A DNA stretch of 64,000 bases, taken from sequence record OP114734.1; one strand, 5' to 3'. This document shows positions 8,541 to 10,467 of the stretch, in pieces. The position numbers and the translations under genes were made by a program. Within the stretch, counting starts at the first letter, position 1, and the number at the start of each line of letters is the position of its first letter. Source of the DNA: Escherichia phage vB_ESM-pEJ01. A model generated the notes under the pieces. The model made no database searches. It was not told where the DNA came from and saw nothing but the letters and a program-made list of their open reading frames with translations.

Positions 8541-10364
8541 TTATGACGCCATCCATGCCTTCCTCATGTCTGAATCTTCGCTATAGAGCAAATCGAATAG
8601 CTCTTTATAGTTTTCCGGTAACGTGATGATCTCCATGACAGGATCGTTGATCACGCGATGATAGTCTGATTCTGTGAGCGATGCTAAACCTTTGATATAT
8701 CGAATGTTGTAACCTTTGATATTATCTCGGTCGTTCTCGAAATCTTCTAGGTCATAATACCATCGAACATCATCACCTTTCTTTGGTTCAGCAATGATAA
8801 TAGGTGTTTTGATAAACCGGATTCGTCCATCTTCGAACAATTCAGGCCAACGTGCAAAGAAAGAGATCAGACTAGGTTTAATAGACCCGATCCCGTCGGT
8901 ATCAGCGTCTGTCATAATCGCAATATTTTTGTATTGCATAACTTCCAATGCATCAACACCAAATTGCAAGCCAGTGATCGCCATGATGTTAAAAATTTCG
9001 GCGTTATTAACGATCTTTGCCTCCGGTTGTTCCCACGTTGTAAGAGTTTTGCCTCGCAACGGGAAACCTCCATGTAAATCTTGATCGCGTACAGAGATCA
9101 GATAGTTGATCGCGGAATCACCTTCCGTCAAAAACAGGGTAGTTTCTGCGTCAGTTCCAATAAGGTTAGCTTTAACGTGTTTTGCCACCTTAGCCCGTTT
9201 CGCTGCCTTTGCTGCCTTAGTCGCTGCCGCTTTATCTGCTGCCTCTTTGCGTGCCAAGACTACAGCAATAATAGGCATGATAATGTTTTCTTTCTTCGCA
9301 ATGACTTTAGCCAGCTTTTTAAAATCAAGATCAATATGACGCTTGATATCACCAGTCGGGTTAGTCAAGCGTTCTTTTGTCTGTGAATCAAAACGAAGGT
9401 TAGGCAATTCACGAACAATAAGAATACAGGTCAATCCAGATTTAACCGCAGCTTTAGTAACATCAACCTTATATTCTTTCTTGATTCGTTTTACAATCTC
9501 TTCACAAAGATCATCTGTCACATAATCAACGTGTGTTCCCCCGTTTTTGGTAAACAGACCGTTAGCAAAGGATACTGATTTAAAACCTTCTCCCTCGACC
9601 GCCGGAACTAGGGCAAGTGAAAAGTTTTTATCTTCAATGACAAACGGATCATCATTGTATAGTTTAGCATAATCCTTGAACTTACTAACAATACGTTTAC
9701 CATTAAACTTAAACGTGATCTTAGGAAATATTACGCTCAATGATTGCAGACGATCATGAACAATATCTAAAACAGAGTTGTCCATCATATAACCTTCGAA
9801 GTGGTCGAAGTCTGGACAAAATGTAACCTTCGTTCCCTTCAATTTTGATGGTTTTGATGACCATGTGACATTTTCAGCACCGTTTGTGCATTGAACGGTC
9901 ATTTCTGTTTCGCCGTCACAGGTCACACCAGTAAACCAATCGCTAAAGAAATTTGATAACGACGACCCAACACCGTTCATCCCTTGCGTTAATCGATTGG
10001 TATCATCAAAGTTAGACCCTGCTTTTGTTCGTGTCCATGCGGCTACAGGTTGCGGAATCTGCGTACCCTCTGGGGTAGTAACCATATGTTGAGGAATACC
10101 GCGACCATTGTCTGTTACCGTAACAATATTGTTTTGGATATCGACGCTAATCACATTGGCAAATTCAAAGTTAGTGCGGATCGCCTCGTCTACAGAGTTG
10201 TCGATGATCTCATCAATGATTTTAACCAGTCCAGGAACGTATGAAATTTTTGTCCATTTACCGAACAGGAAACGTTGATGTTCTTCGTAAGTTGTTGATC
10301 CTATATACATTCCTGCACGCTTAAGGACATGTTCACGATCAGATAAAATGCGAAACTCACTCAT
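8541..10364 (-). CDS. 39: DNA topoisomerase II large subunit (GyrB-like), fused gp39+gp60 equivalent
   Basis: 607 aa single ORF; GHKL ATPase and TOPRIM motifs (IIDEIIDNSVDEA, TEGDSA, MTDADTDG). Confidence 0.9.
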   Translation of the reverse strand: MSEFRILSDREHVLKRAGMYIGSTTYEEHQRFLFGKWTKISYVPGLVKIIDEIIDNSVDEAIRTNFEFANVISVDIQNNIVTVTDNGRGIPQHMVTTPEGTQIPQPVAAWTRTKAGSNFDDTNRLTQGMNGVGSSLSNFFSDWFTGVTCDGETEMTVQCTNGAENVTWSSKPSKLKGTKVTFCPDFDHFEGYMMDNSVLDIVHDRLQSLSVIFPKITFKFNGKRIVSKFKDYAKLYNDDPFVIEDKNFSLALVPAVEGEGFKSVSFANGLFTKNGGTHVDYVTDDLCEEIVKRIKKEYKVDVTKAAVKSGLTCILIVRELPNLRFDSQTKERLTNPTGDIKRHIDLDFKKLAKVIAKKENIIMPIIAVVLARKEAADKAAATKAAKAAKRAKVAKHVKANLIGTDAETTLFLTEGDSAINYLISVRDQDLHGGFPLRGKTLTTWEQPEAKIVNNAEIFNIMAITGLQFGVDALEVMQYKNIAIMTDADTDGIGSIKPSLISFFARWPELFEDGRIRFIKTPIIIAEPKKGDDVRWYYDLEDFENDRDNIKGYNIRYIKGLASLTESDYHRVINDPVMEIITLPENYKELFDLLYSEDSDMRKAWMAS

Positions 10365-10467
10365 TATTAAACCTCTTCATAACATAACCATAACTTACTG
10401 CAACCGCCACAAAGACGGCTGCAACAATCATATTAAAAATTGAGTGATTGTCAAGTATATGACTCAT
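10357..10467 (-). CDS. possible tiny membrane protein (36 aa), translationally coupled
   Basis: ATGA overlap with upstream stop and ATGAGTGA overlap with gene 39 start; one hydrophobic helix MIVAAVFVAVAVSYGYV. Confidence 0.3.
   Translation of the reverse strand: MSHILDNHSIFNMIVAAVFVAVAVSYGYVMKRFNNE

What the first reader, a model, noticed from the sequence alone, without database searches (positions are those of the whole stretch)
10357..10467. Translationally coupled micro-ORF between the zinc-ribbon gene and topoisomerase gene 39
A 36-codon hydrophobic ORF is bracketed by ATGA and ATGAGTGA overlaps with its neighbours, a geometry typical of coupled phage micro-genes. It is below the ORF track threshold.
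Basis: seen in the sequence. Interest (0 to 1): 0.3.

Follow-up and report, generated by a model that had tools for sequence, protein, structure and literature searches.

The report
Known micro-ORF overlapping gene 39 promoter
The 36-codon reading frame is real but is already annotated in phage RB49 (ORF006.1); the same ~100 bases also carry a predicted early promoter and RNA hairpin for the topoisomerase gene, so this is a catalogued feature whose translation is still unproven.

Summary
On the minus strand, a 36-codon hydrophobic ORF (10467..10357) starts in an ATGA overlap with the zinc-ribbon gene 39.2 and ends in an ATGAGTGA overlap with topoisomerase gene 39.

It is not new. The window is an RB49-like Krischvirus, and this ORF is RB49 ORF006.1 (ACC93482.1), added by Arbiol et al. 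2010; it is also phrog_25974. It has no relatives outside the genus.

It holds the best sigma-70 early-promoter match in the region (TTGACA-16-TATGAT), a -17.6 kcal/mol stem-loop, and then the SD and ATG of gene 39. The cassette's 3' edge is an insertion hot spot for homing endonuclease genes, and each insertion replaces the ORF's last six codons.

Evidence for translation is mixed:
- For: codon usage is coding-like (p about 0.01). The 90-nt block is identical in 56 of 58 genomes, which is more conserved than five ordinary PeSL spacers and than the adjacent coding DNA.
- Against: the start has the weakest Shine-Dalgarno pairing of 90 RB49 genes. The bracketing geometry also occurs by chance in about 12% of spacers.

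Best reading: a dual-use segment, with the regulatory role about 0.85 likely and a functional ORF about 0.5 likely. Already known; low interest.

The parts
10357..10467 (-). 36-codon ORF, the same as RB49 ORF006.1 / phi1p006.1 / phrog_25974. It would encode a putative single-pass hydrophobic peptide.
   Evidence: sequence; RB49p006.1, ACC93482.1; phrog_25974, 36/36 positions, E 2e-29; Arbiol et al. added ORF 006.1; exact sequence on 254 contigs; UniRef B2GM55_BPRB4.
10464..10467 (-). ATGA overlap: the stop of 39.2 and the start of the micro-ORF. No Shine-Dalgarno lies upstream.
   Evidence: Anti-SD duplex energy is +0.6 kcal/mol, the weakest of 90 RB49 genes.
10357..10364 (-). ATGAGTGA overlap: the start of gene 39 and the stop of the micro-ORF.
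10449..10454 (-). Predicted -35 hexamer TTGACA (within codons 5-7).
   Evidence: 11 of 12 matches, the best in 8500-13400. (17 exact class members in the window, all on the minus strand, 0.4 expected by chance).
10427..10432 (-). Predicted -10 hexamer TATGAT (within codons 12-14), with a 16-nt spacer. The inferred transcription start is near 10420.
   Evidence: The start site is an inference only.
10395..10427 (-). Stem-loop TTGTTGCAGCCGTC-TTTGT-GGCGGTTGCAGTAA (up to 14 pairs in the scan, 13 in the ViennaRNA fold; about four G-U pairs; -17.6 kcal/mol). It also encodes the Val/Ala-rich core of the peptide.
   Evidence: None of 5816 sampled 33-nt windows is as stable. Other PeSL hairpins in the window range from -13.5 to -21.5 kcal/mol.
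10372..10377 (-). Shine-Dalgarno AAGAGG of gene 39, which doubles as codons 31-32 (K R) of the micro-ORF.
   Evidence: Anti-SD energy is -6.5 kcal/mol.
10378..10467 (-). Hyper-conserved 90-nt block (codons 1-30).
   Evidence: Identical in 56 of 58 GenBank Krischvirus records. Five ordinary PeSL spacers are identical in 0-22 of 57-58 records, and the adjacent 90 nt of 39.2 in 15 of 52. Silent-site diversity is 0.11, against 0.29-0.41 in the flanking genes.
10365..10377 (-). Recombination and insertion zone. In other isolates an Endonuclease_7-type gene (two junction types) or an HNH_3+AP2 gene is inserted here, and the ORF tail is replaced.
10464..10637 (-). Gene 39.2, a 57-aa zinc-ribbon (FmdB-like) protein. 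This is the upstream partner.
8541..10364 (-). Gene 39 (fused 60+39), the topoisomerase II large subunit, 607 aa. This is the downstream partner.

Best explanation
The 104 bp between the stop of 39.2 and the start of gene 39 is a dual-use segment.

First, it is a PeSL-type regulatory cassette. A sigma-70 early promoter (TTGACA-16-TATGAT) fires about 57 nt upstream of gene 39. A stem-loop just after the -10 would attenuate read-through transcripts from upstream. Its 3' half could also form a 5'-terminal hairpin on promoter-initiated transcripts. The cassette ends in the SD (AAGAGG) and ATG of gene 39.

Second, the frame across it is the already annotated ORF006.1. Its ATG lies upstream of the inferred transcription start and has no SD. 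It could therefore be translated only on read-through transcripts, by ribosomes that finish 39.2 at UGA and restart at the overlapping AUG. Those ribosomes would melt the hairpin, stop 5 nt inside gene 39, and hand over to the gene 39 start. The product would be a 36-residue peptide with one membrane-type helix, of which only the first 30 residues are fixed.

Shown by computation: the geometry, the identity with ORF006.1, membership of the promoter class, hairpin stability, coding-like codon usage, hyper-conservation, and the insertion hot spot.

Inferred: promoter activity and start site, attenuation, re-initiation, membrane insertion, and any function of the peptide. My estimates are about 0.85 that the regulatory cassette is real and about 0.5 that the ORF is functionally translated.
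For: Promoter:
- It is the best match in 4.9 kb (11 of 12).
- The exact class TTGACA-N15-18-TATNAT has 17 hits in the window, all on the early-gene strand, against 0.4 expected. In RB49 1-50 kb the count is 14 to 0.

Layout:
- The order upstream stop, -35, -10, stem-loop with G-T pairs, SD, ATG over about 100 bp matches the published PeSL description.
- The hairpin folds at -17.6 kcal/mol, and none of 5816 sampled windows is as stable.

Coding:
- The codon-usage score is 0.33 bit/codon. Genes score 0.41+-0.18, off-frame decoys -0.23+-0.15 (0 of 55 reach it), and open shuffles -0.06+-0.17 (1.2% reach it).
- It is the best of 27 frames across 9 promoter spacers, and the signal is spread over all segments.
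- Promoters embedded in real genes occur elsewhere in RB49 (ORF002c upstream of rIIA, nrdH, gene 49).

Overlap of functions:
- The 90-nt block is identical in 56 of 58 genomes. Five non-coding PeSL spacers are identical in 0, 3, 7, 9 and 22 of 57-58, and the adjacent 39.2 coding DNA in 15 of 52.
- Silent diversity is one third of that in the flanks.
- Within the hairpin, all four pairs between third codon positions are Watson-Crick, while positions 1 and 2 are G-Y codons (by inspection).
Against: - There is no experimental evidence for transcription start, termination or translation at this site. No Krischvirus transcriptome or Ribo-seq paper was found.
- The start codon has the weakest SD of 90 RB49 genes (+0.6 kcal/mol). 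The 29 other overlap-coupled genes all have -1.0 or stronger.
- The site is absent from the 51 early promoters predicted by Nolan et al. 2006, although that list misses 8 of 14 exact-consensus sites.
- It lacks the A-rich UP region and the GGGG...CCCC stem typical of PeSLs.
- There are no homologues outside the genus.
- The C-terminal 6 residues are freely replaced.
- One record has a frameshift in the T5 run; this may be a sequencing error.
- Spanning ORFs with an ATG at the upstream stop occur in 3 of 25 other spacers.
- There is too little variation to show hairpin covariation or dN/dS.
- An extended RNA structure (z = -1.8) could account for the full-length constraint without any coding.
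Confidence: 0.5

Rival explanations
1. Regulatory spacer only. The segment is the early promoter/stem-loop cassette of gene 39. ORF006.1 is an incidental open frame that gene callers and annotators picked up, and it is not translated to any functional effect.
For: - All the promoter and hairpin evidence applies.
- Without the ORF, the 99-nt gap is an ordinary promoter-bearing gap (18 of 89 RB49 junctions exceed 60 nt).
- There is no SD at all, unlike 29 of 29 coupled genes.
- Spanning ORFs arise by chance in about 12% of spacers.
- The ORF is restricted to the genus, and its tail follows whichever SD lies downstream.
- In T4 and the Serratia phages, the equivalent position directly upstream of gene 39 is a non-coding hairpin plus promoter.
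Against: - Codon usage is coding-like (p about 0.01).
- The block is much more conserved than five ordinary PeSL spacers, so PeSL function alone does not explain the invariance.
- It is the only spacer of about 100 nt that is fully open with an ATG at the upstream stop.
Confidence: 0.33
2. One reading: a bona fide translationally coupled micro-gene whose product, a 36-aa single-pass membrane peptide, is the point. The promoter and hairpin resemblance is incidental or secondary.
For: - ATGA and ATGAGTGA overlaps.
- A hydrophobic core flanked by polar N-terminal and basic C-terminal residues.
- Coding-like codon usage.
- The frame is intact on several hundred contigs, and the amino-acid variants are few and conservative (V/L, A/V, A/T, S/G).
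- The authors of the RB49 re-annotation accepted it as a gene.
Against: - An exact consensus promoter of a class with 17 to 0 strand bias is very unlikely to be accidental.
- The hairpin is in the top 0.1% of stability.
- Silent sites are more constrained than in the neighbouring genes, which a purely protein-coding constraint cannot explain.
- There is no SD.
- The basic residues K and R of the tail are simply the translation of the purine-rich SD of the next gene.
- Conservative substitutions are what the genetic code yields from GYN codons in any case.
Confidence: 0.08
3. Translation matters only in cis. Ribosomes restarting at the ATGA act as a relay that melts the stem-loop on read-through transcripts and delivers ribosomes to gene 39, which may also suppress attenuation. 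The peptide itself has no function.
For: - The restart-type start has no SD, and the stop is 5 nt past the gene 39 ATG.
- The hairpin lies wholly inside the ORF.
- In the minimum-energy fold of the read-through RNA, the SD and start region is partly paired with the promoter-spacer region.
- The C-terminal tail is replaceable as long as the frame ends near the next start.
Against: - The extended fold is weak (z = -1.8; MFE frequency 0.004).
- Gene 39 has its own good SD and, by prediction, its own promoter, so it does not obviously need a relay.
- In the phiS type the ORF ends 2 nt before the next start, and in the endonuclease types it overlaps the next gene by 26 nt, so the coupling geometry is not kept.
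Confidence: 0.12
4. The hyper-conservation reflects another DNA-level function that happens to be open in one frame. Candidates are a homing-endonuclease recognition or recombination site, or a promoter-dependent replication origin.
For: - The invariant block has sharp edges and flanks polymorphic DNA.
- It sits next to an endonuclease insertion hot spot.
- From my own knowledge, T4-type origins are a promoter plus a downstream unwinding element.
Against: - The block is identical in genomes with and without the endonuclease genes, whereas homing targets usually differ in endonuclease-carrying genomes.
- The divergent tract in endonuclease-carrying genomes lies in the 5' end of gene 39, which suggests the target is there.
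- Nothing specific points to an origin.
Confidence: 0.05

Closest known systems
RB49 ORF006.1 (RB49p006.1, ACC93482.1) / phi1p006.1 (ABR24515.1) / UniRef B2GM55_BPRB4 / phrog_25974
   Same: It is the identical 36-aa sequence at the same position between 39.2 and gene 39, with the same overlaps. Arbiol et al. 2010 state that they added ORF 006.1 when they re-annotated RB49.
   Different: Nothing differs; this is the same gene model. Its function is listed as unknown and there is no evidence of expression.
PeSL (promoter-early stem-loop) cassettes of RB49/phi1 (Arbiol et al. 2010, PMC2839356)
   Same: The layout matches: a sigma-70-like early promoter, an adjacent stem-loop with G-T pairs (the published subclass with the stem downstream of the -10), the upstream stop on one side and the SD plus ATG on the other, about 100 bp in all. 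It sits next to insertion and replacement polymorphism, with crossovers between the -10 and the ATG.
   Different: - There is no GGGG...CCCC motif and only a weak AT-rich upstream region.
- It lies in front of a conserved core gene rather than an ORFan.
- It is spanned by an annotated ORF.
- It is far less variable than five other PeSL spacers.
- I could not check whether the authors counted it among their 51 RB49 PeSLs, because the figures and supplement are not held.
Early promoters embedded in the 3' part of upstream genes in the same genome (RB49 ORF002c before rIIA, ORF078c, nrdH, gene 49)
   Same: Each is an exact-consensus promoter lying inside a reading frame that ends just before the next gene.
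   Different: Those host genes are 85-157 aa or longer and have their own SD. Here the host frame is only 36 codons, has no SD, and is almost entirely made of regulatory sequence.
T4 region upstream of gene 39 (39.2, 39.1, terminator hairpin and promoter)
   Same: The gene order 39.2 ... 39 is conserved. A hairpin plus promoter sits directly upstream of gene 39 in T4 and in Serratia phages 92A1 and 4S.
   Different: T4 and its relatives carry the 39.1 lipoprotein gene in the slot, and the order there is hairpin then promoter. The micro-ORF has no detectable similarity to gp39.1.
Leader peptides and attenuators, and restart-coupled small ORFs in bacteria and phages (from my own knowledge)
   Same: It is a short ORF translated through a hairpin that precedes a downstream gene, with a stop-start overlap.
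   Different: There are no alternative hairpins or regulatory codons, the coupling is unproven, and the downstream gene has its own promoter and SD.

Membership tests
RB49 ORF006.1 / phrog_25974 | Full-length sequence match to the family profile and to the RB49 protein. | tested here: met
   phrog_25974 matches at E 2e-29 over 36 of 36 positions. tblastn gives 100% identity to RB49, Phi1 and others. The exact sequence is in the protein collection under ACC93482.1 and ABR24515.1.
RB49 ORF006.1 / phrog_25974 | Same genomic position (between 39.2 and gene 39, with overlapping stops and starts). | tested here: met
   RB49 CDS 5021..5131 lies between 39.2 (5128..5301) and gene 39 (3205..5028).
PeSL cassette (Arbiol et al. 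2010) | A sigma-70-like early promoter oriented with early transcription. | tested here: met
   TTGACA-16-TATGAT, 11 of 12 matches. It is one of 17 exact class matches, all on the minus strand, against 0.4 expected.
PeSL cassette (Arbiol et al. 2010) | An adjacent stable stem-loop, often with G-T pairs. | tested here: met
   A stem of up to 14 pairs (13 in the fold) with G-U pairs, -17.6 kcal/mol, within the range of the other PeSL stems in the window (-13.5 to -21.5).
PeSL cassette (Arbiol et al. 2010) | Typical GGGG...CCCC stem motif and an AT-rich tract upstream of the -35. | tested here: not met
   The stem is GCAGCCGTC/GGCGGTTGC, and the upstream sequence is GTGTCATGAGTCATATAC. The paper describes these features as frequent, not obligatory.
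PeSL cassette (Arbiol et al. 2010) | Bounded by the upstream gene's stop and the downstream gene's SD and ATG, about 100 bp in all. | tested here: met
   There are 99 nt between the 39.2 stop and the gene 39 ATG, and the SD AAGAGG lies 7 nt before the ATG.
PeSL cassette (Arbiol et al. 2010) | Association with insertion, deletion or replacement of neighbouring genes, with crossovers between the -10 and the ATG. | tested here: met
   Three inserted-gene junction types plus the canonical one all diverge right after codon 30 or within the SD-start spacer. At least about 40% of contigs in the two cluster listings carry an insertion.
PeSL cassette (Arbiol et al. 2010) | Demonstrated promoter and terminator activity, and inclusion in the authors' list of 51 RB49 PeSLs. 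| not testable with these tools
   No supplement or figure is held. No transcript data were found.
T4-type early promoter as modelled by Nolan et al. 2006 | Predicted by their 51-nt early-promoter HMM. | tested here: not met
   There is no entry near RB49 5091-5118. The list captures only 6 of 14 exact-consensus sites and misses two early promoters that GenBank annotates beside gene 43.
Translationally coupled protein-coding micro-gene | An open frame whose start overlaps the upstream stop. | tested here: met
   The ATGA at 10464-10467. This also occurs in 3 of 25 other spacers.
Translationally coupled protein-coding micro-gene | A ribosome-binding site, as in other coupled genes of the genome. 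| tested here: not met
   +0.6 kcal/mol, the weakest of 90 genes. The 29 other overlap-coupled genes are all at or below -1.0, and the ATGA type averages -6.8.
Translationally coupled protein-coding micro-gene | Coding-like codon usage in this frame. | tested here: met
   0.29-0.33 bit/codon. 1.2% of open shuffles and 0 of 55 off-frame decoys reach it. Each sub-segment alone has p about 0.1.
Translationally coupled protein-coding micro-gene | Purifying selection on the protein (dN/dS below 1) and a frame kept in diverged relatives. | tested here: inconclusive
   There are only 4 segregating sites in 38 loci (3 synonymous, 1 not), and the sampling was biased by the protein-identity look-up. No relatives exist outside a genus that is about 98% identical.
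Translationally coupled protein-coding micro-gene | Evidence of translation (Ribo-seq, mass spectrometry, fusions). | not testable with these tools
   No data were found.
gp39.1 lipoprotein family (as a possible truncated remnant) | Sequence similarity to the gp39.1 signal peptide or mature domain. | tested here: not met
   BLASTP against Serratia phage 4S gp39.1 gives no alignment at E <= 100. There is only a low-complexity resemblance between the hydrophobic cores.

The most novel reading that the evidence does not exclude
A triple-overprinted 90-nt block: the same bases serve as an early promoter, as an RNA hairpin, and as the coding sequence of a 30-residue membrane-anchored micro-protein. 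Translation on read-through transcripts would gate hairpin formation and the hand-over of ribosomes to topoisomerase gene 39. Alternatively, the peptide itself would act with the membrane-associated topoisomerase. This would explain why the block is the most invariant stretch in the region.
Probability: 0.12. Interest if true: 0.5.

Novelty: already known. Interest (0 to 1): 0.2.

Why it matters
As a gene call it adds nothing. The ORF has been in the RB49 and phi1 records since about 2008-2010 and has its own PHROG family.

The useful outcome is a caution and a small lead. The caution is that in RB49-like phages a 'coupled micro-ORF' can be the reading frame of a promoter/stem-loop cassette, so overlap geometry alone should not be taken as evidence of a gene. 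The lead is that this cassette is far more conserved than other PeSL spacers and has coding-like codon usage. That makes it a compact test case for overlapping regulatory and coding constraint, and for SD-less restart translation, in a T4-type phage. It also marks a hot spot where homing endonuclease genes enter next to the topoisomerase gene.

Tried and rejected
- **Homologues outside Krischvirus.** tblastn against 50,697 phage records at E <= 10 found only the 58 Krischvirus records. Exhaustive phmmer against 1.84 billion representatives found one cluster.
- **Known RNA families.** Rfam at E <= 1 found nothing.
- **Diverged copies for covariation or dN/dS.** The viral-contig scan with DexA gave 3 Krischvirus contigs and 2 distant ones without the ORF. 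The metagenome scan with gp39.2 gave 2 Krischvirus contigs plus unrelated zinc-ribbon proteins. The nearest outgroups (Serratia 92A1, 4S and PS2; Cronobacter VP8) carry other genes in the slot.
- **Hairpin covariation.** Of 8 observed changes in stem positions, 5 keep pairing. All five are transitions, for which that is roughly the chance expectation, so this is not informative.
- **dN/dS.** The loci were retrieved by exact protein identity, which biases against non-synonymous changes, so I give no formal estimate.
- **Remnant of the gp39.1 signal peptide.** Rejected, because BLASTP finds no alignment.
- **Nolan et al.'s promoter list as a test of the promoter.** The site is absent, but the list proved incomplete.
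- **'The -10 to ATG distance is unusually long, so the segment must be coding.'** Dropped, because the total gap of 99 nt is ordinary.
- **Expression data.** A literature search for Krischvirus transcriptome or expression data found nothing relevant.
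Full report
**1. The observation**

The window is an RB49-like T4-type phage (genus Krischvirus). 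An 801-nt query around the site matches 58 phage records at 91-99% identity, all of them Krischvirus. The genes here lie on the minus strand in this order:
- dda (11908-13299)
- two small ORFs
- dexA (10639-11307)
- the zinc-ribbon gene 39.2 (true start ATG at 10637, 57 aa, stop at 10464)
- the 36-codon ORF (10467..10357)
- the fused topoisomerase gene 39 (10364..8541)

The ORF's ATG overlaps the TGA of 39.2 (ATGA, 10464-10467). Its TGA lies 5 nt inside gene 39 (ATGAGTGA, 10357-10364). The product is MSHILDNHSIFNMIVAAVFVAVAVSYGYVMKRFNNE, with one hydrophobic stretch. The description is correct at the stated coordinates.

**2. Is the geometry more than chance?**

Geometry alone is not. 22% of dinucleotide shuffles of codons 2-30 remain open. 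In the first 50 kb of RB49, 12 of the 25 other gaps of at least 45 nt have a frame open across the whole gap, and 3 of 25 also have an ATG at the upstream stop. Only 1 of 7 other gaps of at least 80 nt is open. Comparable hydrophobicity is reached by 14.5% of off-frame decoy ORFs.

**3. It is already known**

RB49's GenBank record carries exactly this CDS (RB49p006.1, ACC93482.1, 5021..5131). Arbiol et al. 2010 (PMC2839356) state that they added five RB49 ORFs, including 006.1, when they compared RB49 with phi1. The peptide is a full-length match to phrog_25974, function unknown. The exact sequence occurs on 254 contigs of the public protein collection under the RB49, Phi1 and UniRef names.

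It is an ORFan of the genus. tblastn at E <= 10 finds only the 58 Krischvirus records. An exhaustive phmmer search of 1.84 billion representative proteins finds a single cluster. Pfam has nothing. In the nearest outgroups the slot between 39.2 and 39 holds other genes, a MazG-like gene and 39.1.

**4. What else is in the same DNA**

- **Promoter.** The best sigma-70-type match in 8500-13400 lies inside the ORF on the coding strand: TTGACA (10454-10449), a 16-nt spacer, then TATGAT (10432-10427), 11 of 12 matches. The exact pattern TTGACA-N15-18-TATNAT occurs 17 times in the window, always on the minus (early-gene) strand, against 0.4 expected. In RB49 1-50 kb the count is 14 to 0. This is a real promoter class, and the site belongs to it.
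- **Stem-loop.** It follows the -10 directly: TTGTTGCAGCCGTC-TTTGT-GGCGGTTGCAGTAA (10427-10395), with up to 14 pairs including G-U pairs and -17.6 kcal/mol. None of 5816 sampled 33-nt windows is as stable, and other promoter-associated hairpins in the window range from -13.5 to -21.5.
- **SD and start.** Next come the SD of gene 39 (AAGAGG, 10377-10372) and its ATG.

This order (upstream stop, -35, -10, stem-loop with G-T pairs, SD, ATG, about 100 bp) is the published anatomy of the PeSL cassettes of RB49 and phi1. Those cassettes were shown for some members to be strong promoters and terminators and recombination hot spots, with crossovers between the -10 and the ATG. The intergenic class members in the window follow the same layout. 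Without the ORF, the 39.2-39 gap would be 99 nt, which is ordinary for promoter-bearing gaps.

**5. The 3' edge is an insertion hot spot**

All Krischvirus copies are identical through codon 30 (...GTTATG) and then fall into types:
- canonical: AAGAGGTTTAATA-ATG of gene 39;
- an Endonuclease_7-type 242-aa gene, joined either after the SD (tail KRFKSGYQE[IV]HN) or right after codon 30 (tail YWREKSEHQKVHC, or YWREKK in JEP8);
- an HNH_3+AP2 179-aa gene (phiS type, tail SKIKV, 130 contigs).

In the two cluster listings, about 40% of contigs carry an insertion. So only the first 30 codons are a fixed unit. The tail is whatever the SD and start of the next gene encode, and the K and R of the canonical tail are the translation of AAGAGG.

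**6. Evidence that the frame is really coding**

For:
- In-frame versus off-frame codon usage, trained on 49 long ORFs, gives 0.29-0.33 bit/codon. Real genes give 0.41+-0.18, off-frame decoys -0.23+-0.15 (0 of 55 reach it), and open dinucleotide shuffles -0.06+-0.17 (1.2% reach it).
- It is the best of 27 frames across 9 promoter spacers.
- The signal is spread over the promoter, hairpin and post-hairpin segments (0.39, 0.40 and 0.59), each with p about 0.1 alone.
- Promoters embedded in genuine genes occur elsewhere in RB49 (ORF002c before rIIA, nrdH, gene 49), so a promoter does not exclude coding.

Against:
- The start has no Shine-Dalgarno. Anti-SD pairing is +0.6 kcal/mol, the weakest of 90 RB49 genes. 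The 29 other overlap-coupled genes are all at or below -1.0, and the ATGA type averages -6.8.
- One unannotated record (LF73P4) has a 1-nt deletion in the T5 run that breaks the frame. Another (Brandy) has a deletion in a C4 run of 39.2 that removes the ATGA coupling. Both could be homopolymer sequencing errors.

**7. Conservation**

In 38 loci, silent-site diversity per degenerate third position is 0.41 in dexA, 0.29 in 39.2 and 0.29 in gene 39, but 0.11 in codons 1-30 of the ORF. The ORF block has only 6 haplotypes among 39 loci, against 33 of 37 for dexA.

The three silent variants are all rare. One weakens the -35 (CTT>CTC, L071) and one breaks a stem pair (GCA>GCC, L018). Among 18 protein variants, codons 3-19 (promoter and 5' arm) carry only one change (I10T), and 9 of 13 changes within codons 1-30 fall in codons 20-25.

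Across the 58 GenBank genomes, which form an unbiased sample, the 90-nt block is identical in 56. Five ordinary PeSL spacers of similar length are identical to the window in 3, 9, 22, 0 and 7 of 57-58 records, with many 5-10% diverged. The adjacent 90 nt of 39.2 are identical in 15 of 52.

The block is therefore more constrained than either a typical PeSL spacer or typical coding DNA. That is what overlapping functions would produce. A longer RNA structure (z = -1.8) or another DNA-level role could also contribute.

**8. Mechanism**

I commit to a dual-use segment.

Shown by computation: the consensus promoter, the stable hairpin, the SD and ATG, the ORF geometry, the coding-like composition, the hyper-conservation and the insertion hot spot.

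Inferred:
- The promoter fires near 10420 and drives gene 39, or an inserted endonuclease gene plus gene 39.
- The hairpin attenuates transcripts coming from upstream, and its 3' half may form a 5'-terminal stem on promoter-initiated mRNA.
- ORF006.1's AUG lies upstream of that start site. It can be translated only on read-through transcripts, by SD-less restart after 39.2. This would melt the hairpin and end 5 nt past the gene 39 AUG.

My estimates: regulatory cassette real about 0.85; ORF functionally translated about 0.5; peptide itself functional about 0.3.

**9. Checks on the promoter claim**

The site is not among the 51 RB49 early promoters predicted by Nolan et al. 2006. That list, however, captures only 6 of the 14 exact-consensus sites in RB49's first 50 kb. 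It misses two that the GenBank record annotates as early promoters beside gene 43.

The site lacks the A-rich UP region and the G at -36 of their logo, so it may be a weaker member of the class. Rfam has no match. I found no transcriptome or ribosome-profiling study of a Krischvirus.

**10. Verdict**

The feature is already known as RB49 ORF006.1 and as a member of a described class of regulatory cassettes. The only added value is the recognition that the two coincide and that the block is unusually invariant. Interest is low (0.2).

Noticed in passing
L005 about 3586-3660, minus strand (T4 NC_000866, about 5585-5659), between 39.2 and 39.1: T4's annotated gp39.1 (65 aa) aligns only with the mature part of the ~82-aa gp39.1 lipoprotein precursors of Serratia phages PS2 and 4S and Cronobacter phage VP8 (MKYVLIALGMMALVGC|TD...). 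In T4 the signal-peptide-like part sits in another frame, as an unannotated 24-codon ORF (MKYISRSIAALVLAVSLINSTDAD) that overlaps the 39.1 start and has no lipobox Cys. T4 39.1 therefore looks frameshifted or truncated.
   Followed up: partly
Window 7976-8539, minus strand: A 187-aa HNH_3+AP2 homing-endonuclease-like ORF sits directly after the gene 39 stop; RB49 has ORF005c in this region instead. It is 47% identical over 96 aa to the HNH_3+AP2 gene that phiS-type phages carry upstream of gene 39. Gene 39 is thus flanked by endonuclease insertion sites on both sides across the genus.
   Followed up: partly
L002 2342-2400 (Shigella phage JK32), compared with window 10364-10306: In genomes that carry the endonuclease gene, the first codons of gene 39 are markedly diverged (ATGTCTGAATTTTTGCTGTTAGATGAT... 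against ATGAGTGAGTTTCGCATTTTATCTGAT...). This looks like a co-conversion or immunity tract next to the endonuclease gene and suggests the cleavage target lies in the 5' end of gene 39.
   Followed up: no
Window, 17 sites on the minus strand (for example 42733, 24829, 7979, 48832, 22100, 14995, 40230, 51585): All 17 exact TTGACA-N15-18-TATNAT matches are on the minus strand. About half lie inside upstream coding sequence. At several sites the upstream gene's TGA stop is the TGA inside the TTGACA hexamer itself. Many are followed by a recurrent SD-start motif, GAGGATTATATTATG.
   Followed up: partly
RB49 AY343333, 1-50000 (L079): The published list of 51 predicted RB49 early promoters (Nolan et al. 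2006, Additional file 3) contains only 6 of the 14 exact-consensus sites in this stretch. It omits the two promoters flanking gene 43 that the GenBank record annotates.
   Followed up: yes
L010 about 1140 (phage Brandy MZ504876) and L011 about 625 (Krischvirus LF73P4 OZ035795): These are single-base deletions in homopolymer runs. CCCC to CCC in 39.2 shifts its frame and removes the ATGA coupling. TTTTT to TTTT in codons 10-11 of the micro-ORF breaks the frame and shortens the promoter spacer to 15 nt. Either could be a sequencing error or a real variant.
   Followed up: partly
RB49 gaps 36982->36927, 33340->33264 and 14461->14405 (L079): Three other promoter-bearing intergenic gaps (54-75 nt) also have an unannotated frame that opens with an ATG at the upstream stop and runs to the next gene. 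These are either chance ORFs or further candidate micro-ORFs of the same kind.
   Followed up: no
L015 4357-4641 (IMG/VR contig UViG_3300033696_000004): In this distant relative (DexA 54% identical), dexA is followed by a 278-aa ORF that I judged from its sequence to be a Dam-like methylase (no domain search was run). The ORF just upstream of where gene 39 should begin is a 94-aa lipoprotein-like protein (MKIMLIIATIFLTGC...). A small exported or membrane protein next to gene 39 therefore recurs in different forms.
   Followed up: no
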